Virus record (IMG/VR): IMGVR_UViG_3300013942_000028
Coordinates: 1 to 5,352 of that record
Origin: a virus
Lineage: Duplodnaviria; Heunggongvirae; Uroviricota; Caudoviricetes
Reading direction: 5' to 3' (one strand)
Length of the DNA stretch: 5,352 bases
The stretch's first letter is position 1, and each line of letters opens with the position of its first letter. The notes under the pieces are model-generated. The model had not been told where the DNA came from and did not search any database. It saw only the letters and a list, made by a program, of their open reading frames with translations. Shown piece by piece: positions 1 to 5,352 of the stretch. The position numbers and the translations under genes were made by a program.

Positions 1-1
1 A

Positions 2-103
2 ACTGTTTCATTAGCCGAATGGAAAAAATACCGGGTGCTGCTGATGCGAGTTGATACAGCAGACCCGGACTGGCCTACTCCTCCGGCGACTCAGGCCAGT
101 TGA
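2..103 (+). CDS. Tail fiber assembly protein, C-terminal fragment (5' end lies left of the window); presumed active-orientation partner of the convergent tfa at 75..506
   Basis: Frame 2 is open from the window edge to TGA at 101..103 and reads [33 protein letters not shown]. This matches the lambda Tfa-family C-terminus as I recall it ([15 protein letters not shown]...APDIEWP). Not in the ORF track because no start codon falls inside the window. Confidence 0.6.
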
Positions 104-506
104 TATCTGGTGCGCTGGATATGTCCACAGATTCCAGCGCATCGAGATAATCCAGCCACTCGTTATACTGGGCCTTCTCGTCGTCTGTAAGTCGCCCCAG
201 CGCAGCTTTACCCGGCCACTGCTTGCTGTTTATATACTCATTAGCCTGATCGATACGATACTGTTTTTCAGCTTCAGCTGCTGCGATTTCCTCCTCATGG
301 CTTAAAGGTGGAATGTCTACCCATGCCGGCATTCCATCCTCAGTAGCTCCACGAGTTTTACCCTCTGGTGGCATCCCCGAATATTCAGTGAATGTCTCAT
401 CTGAGACGGCTATGAGATCGTCAGGCCAGTTTCTACTCGCTTCATAAACATCTCTGAGCTCATCAGGGTAGAAAGCGTTATTTAATGCTGAATAAAAATA
501 AGCCAT
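75..506 (-). CDS. tfa: Tail fiber assembly protein (Tfa/gpG/U-like chaperone), alternative copy inside the invertible segment
   Basis: 143-aa ORF ending ...[33 protein letters not shown], the Tfa-family C-terminal motif (W..Y/L....VD.S.APDI.WP). It starts 3 nt downstream of the stop of the tail-fiber cassette on the same strand (translational coupling) and converges on, and overlaps by 29 bp, the other tfa 3' end. Confidence 0.8.
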
Positions 507-509
507 TTA

Positions 510-917
510 TTAATACCCCACAGCAAAATAGTTAAACCCGCCAGCGCCGATGGATGATTCAGCGTTGGTTCCTGTCTGATAAGCGCGTAGCTGGAAATTA
601 GTTCTCGTAAAATCCTGGGCGGTTAACGCAAAACCTTGACCTGTACCCCCAACACTCTGGTCTGTTGCAACAACACATAGCGCCCTGGTTGGAAACGCAA
701 TCGGGAATGATACTGTTTCTGGGGATGTTTTCGTTTTGGCTATTGCCCATTGAAGAATTAACCCGCCTGGCAGGTATTGATACCCCGAATCGGCTCGCTG
801 ATTACCAAATGAAGACATGTCCGGAATCTGTCCGGAACCAGTGCCAACATTTTTTTTTGCCGCATCTCCTAAACCAACGTTTAAGAAAATGCAGAGGTAA
901 CAGCTAACTGGCATCAT
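510..917 (-). CDS. Tail fiber protein C-terminal variable (receptor-binding) cassette, currently in the silent orientation. The ATG at 917 is probably not a real start; the cassette is expected to be expressed only after inversion fuses it to a constant N-terminal tail-fiber segment outside the window
   Basis: Translation contains the side-tail-fiber C-terminal signature ...YLPGGLILQWAIAKT...VSFPIAFPTRALCVVATD..., resembling the Mu S/S', P1 and e14/rac Stf variable domains. The hix-like crossover site lies inside codons ~10-18. An in-frame stop sits just upstream (927..929) and no RBS is evident. Confidence 0.7.
   Translation of the reverse strand: MMPVSCYLCIFLNVGLGDAAKKNVGTGSGQIPDMSSFGNQRADSGYQYLPGGLILQWAIAKTKTSPETVSFPIAFPTRALCVVATDQSVGGTGQGFALTAQDFTRTNFQLRAYQTGTNAESSIGAGGFNYFAVGY
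864..889. other. 26-bp invertase crossover site (hix/gix/cix/pix-like), right-hand copy
   Basis: ATCTCCTAAACC-AA-CGTTTAAGAAAA: two imperfect 12-bp inverted half-sites around a central AA. By my recollection of hixL (TTCTTGAAAACCAAGGTTTTTGATAA) 19 of 26 positions match, including the AAACC-AA-(G/C)GTTT core. Confidence 0.6.
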
Positions 918-944
918 CTCCGGTTTTTATTCAGGGGGATGATC

Positions 945-1520
945 ATGCTTATTGGCTATGTACGCGTGTCAACAAATGACCAGAACACCGATTTGCAACG
1001 TAATGCACTGAACTGCGCGGGATGTGAGCGGATTTTTGAGGACAAAATCAGTGGCACTAAGTCCGACAGACCGGGGCTGAAAAAACTACTCAGGACACTA
1101 TCGGCAGGTGACACGCTGGTTGTCTGGAAGCTGGACAGGTTGGGACGCAGTATGCGGCATCTTGTTACGCTGATAGAAGAGTTGCGCCAGCGTGGCGTGA
1201 ATTTCCGAAGCCTGACTGACAGTATTGATACCAGTACCCCAATGGGCCGTTTCTTTTTTCATGTCATGGGTGCCCCGGCTGAAATGGAACGCGAACTGAT
1301 AGTTGAACGTACCAGGGCGGGGATTGCTGCAGCTCGCGACAAAGGCAGAGTAGGTGGACGCCGTCCTAAGTTGACCACCGAACAGTGGGCACAGATTGGA
1401 CGTTTACTAGAGGCCGGAGAATCAAGACAGCGTATTGCACTGATTTTTGATGTGGGCATTTCTACCATTTATAGAAAATTTCCGGCAAATAAGAGCAGTG
1501 AATCCCCTGAATCAGCATAA
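945..1520 (+). CDS. Site-specific serine DNA invertase (Hin/Gin/Pin/Cin family resolvase-invertase)
   Basis: N-terminus MLIGYVRVSTNDQNTDLQRNA with the catalytic Ser in VRVSTNDQ, the GDTLVVWKLDRLGRS and MGRFFFHVMGA...AEMERELIVERT blocks, and a C-terminal HTH (GESRQRIALIFDVGISTIYRKF). Near-identical in motif order to Gin/Pin/Hin as I recall them. GGGGG at 934..938 is a Shine-Dalgarno 6 nt before the ATG at 945. The track's ATG at 939 is in frame and adds two residues; 945 gives the canonical MLIGYV start. Confidence 0.93.
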   Translation: MLIGYVRVSTNDQNTDLQRNALNCAGCERIFEDKISGTKSDRPGLKKLLRTLSAGDTLVVWKLDRLGRSMRHLVTLIEELRQRGVNFRSLTDSIDTSTPMGRFFFHVMGAPAEMERELIVERTRAGIAAARDKGRVGGRRPKLTTEQWAQIGRLLEAGESRQRIALIFDVGISTIYRKFPANKSSESPESA

Positions 1521-1637
1521 TTTTGATTATCCCTGCAAGTAGACAAATACCGTCATTTTGTGTGAATAACTGTACAACTACACTTAGCTGTTTGTCGGGC
1601 ACAATCACTTCAACATAGGGCGAAGCCTAATCCAATC

Positions 1638-1643
1638 AGGAGG
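1638..1643 (+). promoter_or_regulatory. Shine-Dalgarno sequence of the tail sheath gene
   Basis: AGGAGG 9 nt upstream of the ATG at 1653. Confidence 0.6.
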
Positions 1644-1652
1644 TTCGCCGCT

Positions 1653-2825
1653 ATGGCTCAGGATTACCACCACGGGGTGCGCGTTGTTGAAATCAACGAA
1701 GGCACCCGATCCATTACCACGGTGAGCACCGCCATCGTGGGTATGGTCTGCACGGGCGATGATGCCGATGCAAAAATGTTTCCTCTTAATAAACCCGTGC
1801 TGATCACTGATGTGCTGACTGCCAGCGGTAAAGCGGGTGAGTCCGGCACGCTGGCCCGTTCGCTGGATGCCATCGCTGACCAGGCAAAACCCGTGACCGT
1901 TGTTGTGCGTGTGCCGCAGGGTGAAACGGAAGAAGAAACCACGACCAATATCATCGGCGCAGTGACTGCTGAAGGTAAAAAAACAGGCATGAAAGCCCTG
2001 TTATCTGCCCAGACACAGCTCGGCGTTAAACCGCGCATTCTCGGCGTGCCAGGTCACGATAACAAAGCCGTTGCTACTGAGTTGCTGAGTGTGGCGCAAA
2101 GCCTGCGTGGGTTTGCTTACCTGTCAGCGTATGGCTGCAAGACGGTGCAGGAGGCGATCACTTACCGTGAAAACTTCAGCCAGCGCGAAGGAATGCTGAT
2201 CTGGCCCGACTTTACTGGCTGGGACACGGTGCTGAATGCCGAAGCAACGGCATATGCCACCGCCCGTGCGCTTGGTCTGCGTGCCAAAATTGATGAGCAG
2301 ACTGGATGGCACAAAAGCCTGTCCAACGTGGGCGTGAACGGTGTCACCGGAATTTCTGCAGATGTGTTCTGGGATCTGCAGGACCCGGCAACCGATGCAG
2401 GTCTGCTGAACCAGAACGACGTCACCACGCTTGTGCGTAAAGACGGTTTCCGCTTCTGGGGTTCCCGCTGCCTGAGTGATGACCCGCTCTTTGCCTTCGA
2501 AAACTACACCCGCACGGCGCAGGTGCTGACGGACACAATGGCAGAAGCGCACATGTGGGCAGTGGACAAACCGCTGAACCCGTCGCTGGCGCGCGACATT
2601 ATCGAGGGCATCCGCGCCAAAATGCGCAGCCTGGTCAGTCAGGGGTATCTCATTGGTGGTGATTGCTGGCTGGACGAGTCGGTGAACGACAAAGACACTC
2701 TGAAAGCCGGAAAACTCACCATCGACTATGACTACACGCCAGTGCCGCCACTTGAAAATCTGATGCTGCGCCAGCGCATCACCGATCAGTACCTGGTGAA
2801 TTTCGCCAGCCAGGTCAGCGCGTAA
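1653..2825 (+). CDS. FI: Contractile tail sheath protein (P2 gpFI homologue)
   Basis: 390 aa, close to the P2 FI length. N-terminus [52 protein letters not shown] and internal blocks ([61 protein letters not shown]) match P2 FI from memory. Strong RBS. Confidence 0.95.
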
Positions 2826-2834
2826 GGGGACAAC

Positions 2835-3350
2835 ATGGCTTTACCACGCAAATTAAAACATCTGAACTTGTTTAACGACGGGAACAACTGGCAGGGGATC
2901 GTTGAGTCGCTGACGCTGCCGAAATTCACCCGCAAATATGAGAAGTATCGCGGCGGCGGTATGCCGGGGGCGGTGGATGTGGATCTGGGACTGGATGACA
3001 GTGCACTGGATACAGAATTTTCCATTGGTGGTACTGAACTGCTGCTGTTTAAGCAGATGGGCATATCCACGGTGGATGGCATCCAGCTGCGCTTTACCGG
3101 CTCTATCCAGCGTGACGATACCGGGGAAGTGCAGGCCGTGGAGCTTGTCGTGCGTGGACGTCACAAAGAAGTGGATTCCGGCGAGTGGAAGACGGGCGAA
3201 AGCAACACCACCAAAGTGACCAGTACCAACAGCTACGCGAAGCTGACCATCAATGGTGAGGTGCTCTATGAAGTGGACCTTATCAACATGGTGGAAATTG
3301 TGGACGGTGTTGACCTGATGGAAGCGCACCGCAACGCCCTCGGCCTCTGA
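2835..3350 (+). CDS. FII: Tail tube protein (P2 gpFII homologue)
   Basis: 171 aa starting MALPRKLKHLNLFNDGNNWQG..., the characteristic P2 FII-type N-terminus. It sits immediately downstream of the sheath gene as in P2, with GGGGA 5 nt before the ATG. Confidence 0.93.
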   Translation: MALPRKLKHLNLFNDGNNWQGIVESLTLPKFTRKYEKYRGGGMPGAVDVDLGLDDSALDTEFSIGGTELLLFKQMGISTVDGIQLRFTGSIQRDDTGEVQAVELVVRGRHKEVDSGEWKTGESNTTKVTSTNSYAKLTINGEVLYEVDLINMVEIVDGVDLMEAHRNALGL

Positions 3351-3404
3351 TGTATCTGAACGGCGCGGAATGCCGCGCCAGAACCTAATTTACAGGACAA
3401 CAAA

Positions 3405-3707
3405 ATGAGCGATAAACAGACTGAAAAGACCATTCAACTGGATACCCCCATCATGCGCGGTAAAACAGAAATTACCGAAATTGTGTTGCGTAAACCGCAG
3501 TCTGGTGCGCTGCGCGGCACACGCCTGCAGGCCATTATGGATATGGATGTGAACGCGATGATGACCGTGATCCCCCGCATCTCCAGTCCGGCAGTGACTG
3601 CACAGGAAATCGCAGAGATGGACCCGGCAGATCTCACAGCCATGTCGGTTGAGGTTGTCACTTTTTTGTTGAAGAAGTCGGTGCTTGCCGGTTTACCGAC
3701 AGCCTGA
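3405..3707 (+). CDS. E: Tail assembly chaperone (P2 gpE homologue; lambda gpG analogue)
   Basis: 100-aa ORF between the tube and tape measure genes, the conserved position of E. It contains an in-frame slippery heptamer near its 3' end. Confidence 0.85.
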   Translation: MSDKQTEKTIQLDTPIMRGKTEITEIVLRKPQSGALRGTRLQAIMDMDVNAMMTVIPRISSPAVTAQEIAEMDPADLTAMSVEVVTFLLKKSVLAGLPTA

Positions 3708-3841
3708 CGGTTGACGATCTGGTGGCAGATATCGCCACCATTTTTCACTGGCCGCCATCCGTTACTGACGTTATGCCGCTGACCGAAGTGCTGGAATGGC
3801 GGTATAAAGCGATTCAGAGAAGCGGGGCCAACGATGAGTGA
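3405..3841 (+). CDS. Tail assembly chaperone frameshift product E+E' (frame 0 through 3668, then -1 frame to the TGA at 3839..3841), about 145 aa
   Basis: T TTT TTG at 3662..3668 is in the correct zero-frame register (act-ttt-ttg). The -1 frame from 3668 stays open for 57 codons (VEEVGACRFTDSLTVDDLVADIATIFHWPPSVTDVMPLTEVLEWRYKAIQRSGAND) and terminates 8 nt into the tape measure gene, as described for P2 E/E' and lambda G/GT. Confidence 0.7.
3662..3668 (+). other. Programmed -1 ribosomal frameshift slippery heptanucleotide (X XXY YYZ = T TTT TTG)
   Basis: Seen directly in the sequence, in the required register relative to the E reading frame. Confidence 0.7.
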
Positions 3842-5352
3842 TAACAACCTGCGCCTGCAGGTCATTCTTAATGCGGTTGACAAACTCACCCGCCCATTCC
3901 GTACTGCACAGGCCAGTTCGAAAGAGCTGGCTGGTGCAATCAGAAACTCCCGTGACGCATTAAAGCAACTCAATCAGGCGGGTAACAGCCTGGAAAAATT
4001 TCGCAAGCTGCAGGCCGATAACAAGAAGTTAGGCGACAGGCTGAACTATGCCAGACAGAAGGCTAATTTGCTTAGCTCTGAGCTGGAGGCGATGGAACAA
4101 CCATCACAACGGCACCTTGTGGCTTTAGGTCGGCAAACGCTGGCAGTCCAACGCCTGGAAGAACAACAAAAATATTTGCAGAAGCAAACGGCGCTTGTGC
4201 GTGCAGAACTGTACCGGGCGGGAATTTCTGCGAAAGATGATGCGGGAGCAACTGCCCGTTTAGCCCGTGAAACATCACGTTATAACCAGGAATTGTCGAA
4301 ACAGGAGGCGCGGCTGAAGCGACTGGGTGAAGCTCAGCGCAGGATGAATGCGGCGCGTGCCAGTTATGCCCGTTCGCTGGAGGTGCGCGATCGTATTGCA
4401 GGAGCCGGAGCCACTACCACGGCTGCAGGGCTGGCAATGGGGACGCCAGTGATGGCGGCAGTAAAAAGCTATACCAGCATGGAAGATGCCATGAAAGGTG
4501 TGGCAAAGCAGGTCAATGGTCTGCGTGACGATAATGGAAACCGTACTGCACGTTTTTATGAAATGCAGGATGCCATCAAGGCTGCCAGCGAACAGTTGCC
4601 GATGGAAAACGGTGCGGTGGACTTCGCTGCACTGGTTGAAGGTGGTGCGCGCATGAACGTCGCAAACCCTGACGACAGCTGGGAAGACCAGAAACGTGAC
4701 CTGCTGGCCTTCGCCAGTACGGCAGCAAAGGCGGCAACAGCCTTTGAGCTGCCAGCGGATGAACTGTCAGAAAGTCTGGGGAAAATCGCCCAGCTCTACA
4801 AAATACCTACCCGCAATATTGAACAGCTCGGCGATGCGCTGAACTATCTGGATGATAACGCCATGTCGAAAGGGGCGGACATCATTGATGTCATGCAACG
4901 TCTGGGCGGTGTGGCTGACCGTCTGGATTATCGTAAAGCGGCGGCACTGGGTTCCACCTTTCTGACACTGGGCGCTGCGCCGGAGGTTGCAGCCAGTGCA
5001 GCAAACGCGATGGTGCGTGAATTGTCCATTGCCACCATGCAAAGCAAGAGTTTCTTTGAAGGGATGAATCTGCTGAAACTCAATCCTGAAGTGATTGAAA
5101 AGCAGATGACGAAGGATGCGATGGGAACTATCCAGCGTGTGCTGGAGAAGGTGAACGCACTGCCGCAGGACAAGCGTCTGTCTGCCATGACCATGTTGTT
5201 TGGTAAAGAGTTTGGTGATGACGCGGCGAAACTGGCAAACAACCTTCCGGAACTGCAGCGCCAGCTAAAACTGACAGCGGGCAATGATGCGCTCGGTTCC
5301 ATGCAGAAAGAATCCGACATCAACAAAGACTCACTTTCTGCTCAGTGGTTGC
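3834..5352 (+). CDS. T: Tail tape measure protein (P2 gpT homologue), N-terminal ~506 codons; continues past the window end
   Basis: ATG at 3834 preceded by GGGG 8 nt upstream. I translated the frame by hand and it stays open to the window end with no stop. N-terminus MSDNNLRLQVILNAVDKLTRPFRTAQASSKELAG... followed by Q/L/E/R/A-rich heptad-like stretches typical of tape measure proteins. Position immediately after E/E' is conserved. Confidence 0.9.
   Translation, partial: MSDNNLRLQVILNAVDKLTRPFRTAQASSKELAGAIRNSRDALKQLNQAGNSLEKFRKLQADNKKLGDRLNYARQKANLLSSELEAMEQPSQRHLVALGRQTLAVQRLEEQQKYLQKQTALVRAELYRAGISAKDDAGATARLARETSRYNQELSKQEARLKRLGEAQRRMNAARASYARSLEVRDRIAGAGATTTAAGLAMGTPVMAAVKSYTSMEDAMKGVAKQVNGLRDDNGNRTARFYEMQDAIKAASEQLPMENGAVDFAALVEGGARMNVANPDDSWEDQKRDLLAFASTAAKAATAFELPADELSESLGKIAQLYKIPTRNIEQLGDALNYLDDNAMSKGADIIDVMQRLGGVADRLDYRKAAALGSTFLTLGAAPEVAASAANAMVRELSIATMQSKSFFEGMNLLKLNPEVIEKQMTKDAMGTIQRVLEKVNALPQDKRLSAMTMLFGKEFGDDAAKLANNLPELQRQLKLTAGNDALGSMQKESDINKDSLSAQWL

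What the first reader, a model, noticed from the sequence alone, without database searches (positions are those of the whole stretch)
1..5352. Mosaic junction: tail fiber cassettes and invertase lie upstream of FI, on the opposite strand from the sheath operon
In canonical P2 the fiber genes H and G are co-directional with FI and separated from it by Z/fun. Here the fiber cassette and tfa nearest the sheath operon are on the minus strand and the invertase occupies the moron slot. The fiber/invertase part also looks more A/T-rich by eye than the FI-T part (visual impression, not computed). Both points suggest the switch was acquired as a horizontally exchanged module.
Basis: inference. Interest (0 to 1): 0.35.

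Follow-up and report, generated by a model that had tools for sequence, protein, structure and literature searches.

The report
Invertible tail-fibre switch in P2-family prophage
The window is the right half of a well-known phage host-range switch (a flippable tail-fibre segment plus its DNA invertase) sitting just upstream of the tail sheath genes of a P2-family prophage of E. coli; the layout is ordinary for this phage group, and the real mosaic joint lies at the invertase's own recombination site.

Summary
The observations hold. On the minus strand lie a tail-fibre assembly gene (75-506) and a silent fibre tip (510-875). A Gin-type serine invertase (945-1520, +) follows, then FI, FII, E, E' and T. 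GC is 48.7% for 1-1520 against 54.6% for 1653-5352 (GC3 0.45 vs 0.61), with the best change-point at 1617.

The minus-strand cassette is the silent half of a Mu G-segment-like invertible segment. The active H and tfa lie just upstream, co-directional with FI, as seen in contigs 100% identical to the window. The same gene order occurs in Fels-2, phage 500465-1 and 561 of 5426 complete E. coli genomes.

The real mosaic joint is not between invertase and FI. It maps to the 26-bp crossover site (864-889), within a 13-nt interval around the central AA. To its right one relative is 99.8% identical. To its left a different relative is 99.6-100% identical. The invertase diverges in step with the backbone.

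The same 1.55-kb segment also sits, flipped, in a true P2-type backbone. That shows both inversion and exchange between backbones. Invertases and fibre swaps in the P2 Z/fun hotspot are already published. Already known; low interest.

The parts
1..103 (+). 3' end of the active (expressed-orientation) tail fibre assembly gene tfa; it runs off the left end of the window and has its stop at 101-103.
   Evidence: Maps onto the annotated tfa CDS ends in E47 and NCTC11023. In the 100% identical contig L012 the full 143-aa Caudo_TAP gene is at 6728-7159, which ends at window 103.
75..506 (-). tfa', the tail fibre assembly chaperone of the silent cassette. It is convergent with tfa and overlaps it by 29 nt.
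   Evidence: Pfam Caudo_TAP 1.9e-38. It is 100% identical in nucleotides to NCTC11023. After in-silico inversion it follows the alternative H'.
510..875 (-). Sv', the silent alternative C-terminal receptor-binding tip of fibre protein H. It has no start codon of its own in vivo; the ORF list extends it artificially to 917.
   Evidence: Pfam Gp53-like_C 1e-18. In-silico inversion fuses it in frame to the H constant part, giving a 471-aa H'. It occurs in only 7 of 5426 E. coli genomes.
864..889 (.). Right crossover site (gix/cix/hix-like, 26 bp): ATCTCCTAAACC-AA-CGTTTAAGAAAA, with core AA at 876-877. The mosaic joint lies at 871-883.
   Evidence: It matches Mu gixR at the annotated G-segment boundary. 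An inverted partner lies inside H in every switch-bearing relative. Half-sites are exchanged at the central AA between NCTC11023 and isolate 02B21CPO003B.
906..925 (+). Weak terminator-like hairpin between the crossover site and the invertase start; function not established.
   Evidence: Consensus scan only.
945..1520 (+). Gin/Cin/Pin/Hin-family serine DNA invertase, 191 aa. ATG 945 is the start annotated in relatives; ATG 939 is upstream in frame. Catalytic Ser9 is present. Residue 111 is Pro, where all relatives have Leu.
   Evidence: Pfam Resolvase 9.5e-52 plus HTH_7 1.7e-14. It is 71-72% identical to Mu Gin and matches PDB 3uj3 (Gin) at 4e-92.
1559..1576 (+). TGT-N12-ACA dyad, the probable Ogr-type activator site of the late promoter pF for the FI operon.
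   Evidence: The motif lies 94 nt before the FI ATG. The annotated P2 pF and 186 pJ activator sites lie 91 and 90 nt before theirs. The call rests on position and motif only.
1653..2825 (+). FI, the tail sheath protein.
   Evidence: Pfam Phage_sheath_1, Phage_sheath_1C and Gp18_domIII_N. It is 90.5% identical in amino acids to Fels-2 FI and 68.4% to P2 FI.
2835..3350 (+). FII, the tail tube protein.
   Evidence: Pfam Phage_tube 8.7e-60.
3405..3841 (+). E (3405-3707) and E' (3722-3841), the tail assembly chaperone pair joined by a frameshift in P2-family phages.
   Evidence: Pfam Phage_TAC_7 3e-18. The gene called in the identical contig L012 at 10778-10897 carries PF06528, Phage_P2_GpE. The frameshift itself is annotated in P2 and was not tested here.
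3834..5352 (+). T, the tape measure protein: its 5' half, running off the right end of the window.
   Evidence: The reading frame is open to the end of the window. In L012 the 1025-aa gene carries PF10145, PhageMin_Tail.

Best explanation
The window is the right-hand part of a standard invertible tail-fibre host-range switch of a Fels-2/Wadgaonvirus-like P2-family prophage of E. coli, followed by the FI-FII-E-E'-T tail operon.

How it works:
- A Gin-family serine invertase (945-1520) acts on two inverted 26-bp sites. One lies inside fibre gene H, upstream of the window. The other is at 864-889.
- Flipping the roughly 1.55-kb segment between them replaces the C-terminal tip of H and its cognate chaperone. 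The pair Sv/tfa is swapped for Sv'/tfa' (window 510-875 and 75-506), which changes receptor specificity.
- The minus-strand genes are simply the cassette that is silent in this orientation.

The switch sits in the inter-operon gap between the H-G operon and the late promoter pF, where P2 carries Z/fun. It forms a low-GC island because fibre tips, chaperones and invertases come from a lower-GC pool shared among Mu-, P1-, e14- and P2-type phages.

In recent evolution the unit that moves is the invertible segment, bounded by the crossover sites. The invertase has been inherited together with the sheath operon.

Shown here: gene identities, paired sites, in-frame alternative fusion, composition, identity breakpoints, and the same segment in both orientations and on two backbones. 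Inferred: that this particular invertase is active, that it depends on Fis and an enhancer, and the receptor specificities.
For: - Gene families.
- Invertase: 71-72% identical to Mu Gin, E = 4e-92 to Gin structure 3uj3.
- Architecture is identical to the Mu G segment, S-U-U'-S'-gix-gin.
- Same order in Fels-2, phage 500465-1, and E. coli E47 and SW071611. In all, 561 E. coli genomes cover at least 80% of the window.
- Paired inverted sites occur in all switch-bearing relatives, and at Mu's annotated G boundaries.
- Contigs L012 and L014 are 100% identical to the window. They show H and tfa upstream on the + strand, with the left site 1547 bp away.
- In-silico inversion gives an intact 471-aa H' followed by tfa'.
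- NCTC11023 and isolate 02B21CPO003B share the 1555-bp segment at 99.55% in opposite orientation. Their half-sites are swapped at the central AA, on backbones only 65-68% identical.
- The low-GC island is bounded by the left site and the pF spacer.
- Identity breakpoints fall at 854-896. The invertase tracks the backbone.
- Literature: inversion was shown experimentally in P2-like prophages of EPEC (PMC4272514). Invertases and fibre swaps are reported in the P2 Z/fun hotspot (bioRxiv 10.1101/2024.10.15.618418).
Against: - The invertase carries L111P at a column that is invariant in all relatives compared. This is the equivalent of Hin Leu112 in the helix-E rotation interface.
- Every contig of this exact lineage shows a single orientation, so this copy may be inactive.
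- No convincing pair of Fis sites could be picked out in the 5' part of the gene.
- No sigma-70-like promoter for the invertase was found.
- The left junction of the segment swap could not be resolved with the relatives fetched. The H constant part is only 92-94% identical to either relative.
Confidence: 0.9

Rival explanations
1. One reading: the whole switch (fibre cassettes plus invertase) was acquired as one horizontally transferred module, dropped into the moron slot of a P2 backbone. On this view the junction lies between the invertase and FI.
For: - The GC change-point is at 1617, just before FI.
- The invertase has GC3 0.48 against 0.61-0.66 for the backbone.
- P2, 186 and 4LV2017 lack the switch.
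- 4LV2017 similarity starts at 1652, and NCTC11023 lacks 897-1524.
- The invertase is about equally distant from those of Fels-2 (83.8% aa) and a P2-type backbone (83.2%). FI differs strongly between the same two (90.5% vs 68.6%), a mild incongruence.
Against: - Among close relatives the invertase diverges in step with FI, with no identity break at 1520-1652.
- The order is the same in Fels-2 and in hundreds of E. coli prophages, so any acquisition is old and not visible as a junction here.
- The fibre genes of 186 and 4LV2017 retain relic crossover sites. Ancestral presence with repeated loss is therefore at least as likely.
- The minus-strand orientation is intrinsic to the switch, not a sign of insertion.
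Confidence: 0.3
2. Plain vertical inheritance with no exchange. On this view the composition difference reflects only different constraints or expression levels of fibre and invertase genes.
For: Gene order is conserved in close relatives. Fibre tip and chaperone genes are low-GC even in P2 itself, where G is 43.8%.
Against: - There are sharp identity switches at the crossover site. SW071611 is 99.76% identical to the right of 854 and unrelated to the left. NCTC11023 is 99.55% identical over 1-896 but only about 95% in the backbone.
- The segment occurs in 7 genomes, against the backbone in about 1600.
- The same segment is found on a P2-type backbone whose FI is only 68% identical.
Confidence: 0.03
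3. The arrangement is an assembly artefact: a chimeric short contig joining unrelated phage pieces.
For: The window is a 5352-nt contig that starts inside the invertible segment. Two other contigs also break there.
Against: Independent assemblies L012 and L014 are 100% identical over all 5352 nt, and L013 is 99.94% identical. In each the locus is embedded in a complete prophage next to ybjL.
Confidence: 0.01

Closest known systems
Fels-2 prophage of Salmonella Typhimurium LT2 (Felsduovirus): invertible fibre segment with DNA invertase STM2702, upstream of FI
   Same: The gene order is identical: I-H-tfa-tfa'(opposite strand)-H'(opposite strand)-invertase-FI-FII-E-E'-T-U-D-ogr. Inverted crossover sites are paired. 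The low-GC island has the same extent. The invertase is 84% identical in amino acids and FI 90.5%.
   Different: The Fels-2 segment is longer (about 2.7 kb against 1.55 kb), and its fibre tips are unrelated to those here.
Bacteriophage Mu G segment with Gin (also P1 C segment/Cin, e14 P segment/Pin)
   Same: The architecture is the same, Sc-Sv-U-U'-Sv'-site-invertase. The invertase lies just outside the right site and is co-directional with the expressed fibre gene. The 26-bp sites have an AAACC-NN-GGTTT core. The invertase is 71-72% identical to Gin.
   Different: The backbone is P2-family, not Mu. The segment is half the size. The right site has CGTTT instead of GGTTT in its outer half. What follows the invertase is the sheath operon rather than com/mom.
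Escherichia phage 500465-1 (Wadgaonvirus) and E. coli prophages such as SW071611 and E47
   Same: These are the closest backbones, at 95-99.8% nucleotide identity from 854 to 5352 including the invertase. The layout is the same, and for SW071611 and E47 so is the insertion next to ybjL (500465-1 lies next to smpB instead).
   Different: They carry different invertible-segment cassettes; tfa' identity is 64-70% or less. Their invertases have Leu111, not Pro.
Phage P2 Z/fun hotspot between G and pF/FI
   Same: The position is the same: between the end of the H-G operon and the late promoter of the sheath operon. The literature already lists invertases and fibre swaps in this hotspot. E. coli isolates 02B21CPO003B and CUWW10 have a P2-type backbone (FI of 02B21CPO003B is 98% identical to P2's) that carries this very segment plus an invertase there.
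   Different: P2 itself carries fun(Z), a lysogenic-conversion gene of 33% GC on the minus strand. It has no invertase and no alternative cassette.

Membership tests
Hin/Gin/Cin/Pin DNA invertase subfamily of small serine recombinases | N-terminal resolvase catalytic domain with the nucleophilic Ser (Gin Ser9), plus a C-terminal HTH DNA-binding domain, about 190 aa in all | tested here: met
   Pfam Resolvase 9.5e-52 and HTH_7 1.7e-14. The N-terminus MLIGYVRVSTNDQ is invariant with Gin. The protein is 71-72% identical to Gin and matches PDB 3uj3 at 4e-92 over residues 1-184.
Hin/Gin/Cin/Pin DNA invertase subfamily of small serine recombinases | Two 26-bp imperfectly palindromic crossover sites in inverted orientation flanking the segment, with a 2-bp core | tested here: met
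   The right site is at window 864-889. The left site lies inside H, 1547 bp away, in the 100% identical contigs L012 and L014. The same pattern falls at Mu's annotated G boundaries.
Hin/Gin/Cin/Pin DNA invertase subfamily of small serine recombinases | Fis-bound recombinational enhancer within the 5' part of the invertase gene | tested here: inconclusive
   A scan for Fis-like 15-mers in the first 300 nt gave candidates, but no conserved pair at the expected spacing of about 48 bp shared with Mu gin. The consensus is too degenerate to decide.
Hin/Gin/Cin/Pin DNA invertase subfamily of small serine recombinases | Conserved hydrophobic helix-E residues of the rotation interface (Hin Phe105, Met109, Leu112) | tested here: not met
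   Phe and Met are present, but the Leu112 equivalent (residue 111 here) is Pro. All five other invertases aligned have Leu. The protein is therefore a family member by sequence, possibly an impaired one.
Hin/Gin/Cin/Pin DNA invertase subfamily of small serine recombinases | The segment actually inverts | tested here: met
   This is comparative evidence for the segment, not for this copy of the enzyme. The same 1555-bp segment (99.55%) is found in both orientations, with half-sites exchanged at the central AA. Within the L111P lineage only one orientation was seen, in 4 full contigs.
P2-family (Peduoviridae) tail late operon | FI sheath, FII tube, E and E' chaperones and T tape measure, in this order on one strand | tested here: met
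   Pfam hits, genes called in identical contigs, and synteny with P2, 186 and Fels-2.
P2-family (Peduoviridae) tail late operon | Ogr/B-dependent late promoter with a TGT-N12-ACA-type dyad about 90 nt before FI | tested here: met
   A perfect dyad lies at 1559-1576, 94 nt before the ATG. The annotated P2 and 186 sites lie 91 and 90 nt before theirs. This rests on motif and position only; the pattern occurs 3 times in the window.
Moron (autonomous accessory transcription unit between phage operons) | Located between two conserved operons and differing in composition | tested here: met
   The block lies between the H-tfa operon and pF, at 48.7% GC against 54.6%.
Moron (autonomous accessory transcription unit between phage operons) | Own promoter and terminator flanking the inserted gene; accessory function unrelated to virion formation | tested here: not met
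   No sigma-70-like promoter was found upstream of the invertase and no terminator after it. There is only a weak hairpin at 906-925, before the gene. Its function is tied to the fibre genes, so it is not a lysogenic-conversion cargo.

The most novel reading that the evidence does not exclude
The invertible segments may be swapped between different P2-family backbones by the invertase itself. This would be site-specific recombination in trans at the 26-bp sites between co-resident prophages, a natural recombinase-mediated cassette exchange, rather than homologous recombination.

The evidence does not exclude it. In this window the joint between the 'NCTC11023-type' segment and the 'SW071611-type' backbone maps to 13 nt (871-883) centred on the cleavage dinucleotide. 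The same segment also sits on backbones that are only 65-68% identical, where flanking homology for ordinary recombination is short.
Probability: 0.15. Interest if true: 0.45.

Novelty: already known. Interest (0 to 1): 0.12.

Why it matters
This matters little beyond correct annotation. Invertible fibre switches set prophage and tailocin host range. They also explain why short-read assemblies break at this locus.

The locus is a clean worked example. It shows that the exchangeable unit is the segment between the crossover sites, not the invertase. It also shows that copies exist with the invertase deleted (NCTC11023 type) or possibly crippled (L111P here). That is relevant to anyone predicting host range or phase variation from genome sequence.

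Tried and rejected
- Fis/enhancer sites: I scanned the 5' part of the invertase gene and compared it with Mu gin, Fels-2 and a P2-type copy. No conserved pair appeared at the right spacing, so the question is left inconclusive.
- Promoter and terminator for the invertase: the consensus scan found no promoter for it, only a weak hairpin at 906-925.
- Left junction of the segment swap: I compared the identical contig L012 with SW071611 and NCTC11023. The H constant part is 92-94% identical to both, so neither is a clean parent on that side and the left joint is unresolved.
- Close relatives of the fibre tip among deposited phages: tblastn found none above about 52% amino-acid identity. There were only distant tips in P2-like, SfV/SfII, Vibrio and Azospirillum phages. 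The chaperone reaches at most 65%.
- Assembly-chimera explanation: rejected, because three independent assemblies match the whole window at 99.94-100%.
- Internal repeats in the window: only short chance matches. The partner crossover site lies outside the window.


Full report
**What is in the window.** ORF listing and Pfam scans give the following map.
- 1-103 (+): the 3' end of a tail fibre assembly gene, running off the left end.
- 75-506 (-): a second tail fibre assembly gene, tfa' (Caudo_TAP, 1.9e-38).
- 510-875 (-): a fibre C-terminal tip (Gp53-like_C, 1e-18).
- 945-1520 (+): a small serine recombinase (Resolvase plus HTH_7).
- 1521-1652: a 132-nt spacer.
- Then on the + strand: FI sheath (1653-2825), FII tube (2835-3350), E (3405-3707), E' (3722-3841) and the first half of the tape measure T (3834 to the end).

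The recombinase is 71-72% identical to Mu Gin and matches the Gin crystal structure 3uj3 at E = 4e-92.

**Check of the observation.** The strand and order statements are correct. The P2 comparison is also correct: P2 has H, G, a terminator, fun(Z) on the minus strand, the pF activator site, then FI.

The visual impression of A/T richness holds when computed.
- GC is 48.7% for 1-1520 against 54.6% for 1653-5352 (p = 1.2e-4).
- Third-position GC is 0.452 against 0.610 (p = 1.3e-8).
- The best single change-point is at 1617, in the spacer before FI. Only 3 of 500 block shuffles reach the observed statistic.

**What it is.** The layout is that of the Mu G segment, Sc-Sv-U-U'(-)-Sv'(-)-gix-gin.

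A 26-bp gix/cix/hix-like site, ATCTCCTAAACC-AA-CGTTTAAGAAAA, lies at 864-889, between the silent tip and the invertase. The same pattern marks Mu's annotated G boundaries. In every switch-bearing relative a second copy lies in inverted orientation inside H.

The exact invertase protein is found on 19 public contigs. L012 and L014 match all 5352 nt of the window at 100%, and L013 at 99.94%. They show what lies to the left of the window. V, W, J, I, H and tfa are all on the + strand, and the partner site sits inside H, 1547 bp from the right site. The prophage is inserted next to ybjL.

So the expressed fibre gene and its chaperone are co-directional with FI, exactly as in P2. The minus-strand genes are the alternative, currently silent cassette. 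Inverting the segment in silico fuses the constant part of H in frame to the window's tip. This gives a 471-aa H' ending ...LGLGDAAKKNVGTGSGQIPDM..., followed directly by tfa'.

**Synteny.** The order H-tfa-tfa'-Sv'-invertase-FI-FII-E-E'-T-U-D-ogr is identical in these relatives:
- Fels-2;
- Escherichia phage 500465-1, a Wadgaonvirus;
- E. coli E47 and SW071611.

In all, 561 of 5426 complete E. coli genomes have a match covering at least 80% of the window. Given the rarity of the left cassette, coverage that high requires the invertase to sit directly upstream of FI.

P2 and 186 lack the switch, as does Klebsiella phage 4LV2017. Yet 186 gene K carries an annotated 'Mu-like inversion crossover site', and 4LV2017 H carries a relic left site.

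The spacer 1521-1652 holds a perfect TGT-N12-ACA dyad 94 nt before the FI start. The annotated activator sites of P2 pF and 186 pJ lie 91 and 90 nt before theirs. The late promoter therefore appears to be retained, and the switch sits in the same inter-operon gap as Z/fun.

**Where the mosaic joint really is.** Segment-by-segment identities show the following.
- SW071611 is 99.76% identical from 854 to 5352, invertase included. To the left of 854 it is unrelated.
- NCTC11023 is 99.55% identical over 1-896. It lacks 897-1524, which is exactly the invertase gene. It is about 95% identical from 1525 on.

Informative differences place the joint between 870 and 884. The window's inner half-site is the NCTC11023 type, differing from SW071611 at 864 and 870. 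Its outer half-site is the SW071611 type, differing from NCTC11023 at 884 and 885. This leaves a 13-nt interval centred on the core AA at 876-877.

By contrast the invertase tracks the backbone, and there is no break at 1520-1652.

| Relative | Invertase identity | FI identity |
|---|---|---|
| E47 | 96.2% | 97.0% |
| 500465-1 | 97.0% | 96.6% |
| SW071611 | 99.8% | 99.9% |

**Direct comparative evidence for inversion and exchange.** The cassette 104-853 occurs in only 7 of 5426 E. coli genomes.

In two of these, isolate 02B21CPO003B and strain CUWW10, the backbone is a true P2 type. FI is 396 aa, 98% identical to P2 FI in 02B21CPO003B and only 68.6-68.9% identical to the window's FI in the two. 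There the segment lies in the opposite orientation relative to FI, in 02B21CPO003B as the whole 1555 bp at 99.55% identity to NCTC11023. The half-sites are exchanged exactly at the central AA, and the adjacent invertase is only 79% identical in nucleotides to the window's.

This shows that the segment flips. It also shows that the segment, not the invertase, is the unit recently shared between backbones.

**Composition in context.** In NCTC11023, SW071611, E47 and Fels-2 the low-GC island starts at the left crossover site inside H.

| Region | GC | GC3 |
|---|---|---|
| H constant part | 54.5% | 0.57 |
| H variable part | 42-48% | 0.31-0.40 |
| Invertase | about 50% | 0.47-0.49 |
| FI | 57% | 0.64 |

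Mu's G segment and gin are 42-47% GC, and P2 G is 43.8%. It does not date the acquisition, and it does not place a junction at 1520-1652.

At greater depth there is a mild incongruence. The invertase is about equally distant from the Fels-2 copy (83.8% aa) and the P2-type copy (83.2%). FI differs strongly between the same two (90.5% vs 68.6%). This is compatible with older exchange of invertases but is not decisive.

**Literature.**
- Inversion in P2-like prophages of EPEC E2348/69 has been shown experimentally, with two- and four-variant versions (PMC4272514).
- A 2024 survey of phage hotspots states that the P2 Z/fun hotspot shows swaps of fibre and fibre-assembly genes. It adds that it 'often' holds a DNA invertase with inversion of the adjacent genes (bioRxiv 10.1101/2024.10.15.618418).
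- The Fels-2 record annotates the invertase as similar to Cin and Gin.

The arrangement is therefore already known.

**Caveats on function.** The window's invertase has Pro at residue 111, where every compared relative has Leu. This is the equivalent of Hin Leu112, one of three hydrophobic residues proposed to gate subunit rotation in helix E (PMC4513852).

The variant is real: the identical protein occurs in several E. coli and Shigella sonnei assemblies. All full contigs of this lineage show one orientation. The switch may therefore be frozen in this lineage, as it must be, barring an invertase supplied in trans, in the NCTC11023-type prophages that lost the gene. That related invertases can complement each other in trans is from my own knowledge and was not tested here.

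Fis/enhancer sites and an invertase promoter could not be established.

**Verdict.** This is an ordinary, previously described invertible tail-fibre switch of a P2-family prophage. The true mosaic joint is at the crossover site (864-889), not between the invertase and FI. Novelty: already known. Interest: low.

Noticed in passing
window 1275-1277 (codon CCG, invertase residue 111): The invertase has Pro where Gin, the Fels-2 invertase, E47, SW071611 and the P2-type copies all have Leu. This is the equivalent of Hin Leu112 in the helix-E rotation interface. The exact protein recurs on 19 contigs (E. coli, Shigella sonnei), and all full contigs show one segment orientation, so the switch may be frozen.
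   Followed up: partly
L002 (E. coli NCTC11023) 6895/6896, equivalent to window 897-1524: Five E. coli genomes keep both crossover sites and both fibre cassettes (99.6-100% identical to the window) but lack exactly the invertase gene. The segment is orphaned next to pF.
   Followed up: partly
L010 (isolate 02B21CPO003B) and L011 (CUWW10), 3700-5280: A true P2-type backbone (FI 98% identical to P2) carries this same invertible segment in the opposite orientation. A 197-aa invertase sits where P2 has Z/fun.
   Followed up: yes
window 1; L015 start (equivalent to window 615); L016 start (equivalent to window 829): Three independent contigs, the window included, end inside the invertible segment. 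This is possibly an assembly break caused by the inverted similarity of tfa and tfa', or by mixed orientation in the sample.
   Followed up: no
window 906-925 (+): A weak terminator-like hairpin followed by a T run lies between the crossover site and the invertase start. It could limit read-through from the late fibre operon into the invertase.
   Followed up: no
window 75-103: The convergent tfa and tfa' genes overlap by 29 nt at their 3' ends. The same overlap is annotated in E47, NCTC11023, SW071611 and 500465-1.
   Followed up: partly
L005 (phage 186) 2963-2988; L008 (Klebsiella phage 4LV2017) about 3991-4014: Fibre genes of P2-family phages without a switch still carry relic crossover sites. 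The one in 186 is annotated as a 'Mu-like inversion crossover site'. This suggests descent from, or recombination with, switch-bearing fibres.
   Followed up: partly
L012 5337-6400 vs L003 and L002: The constant part of H in the window's own lineage is only 92-94% identical to both of the relatives that are near-identical elsewhere. There is therefore further mosaicism upstream of the window.
   Followed up: no
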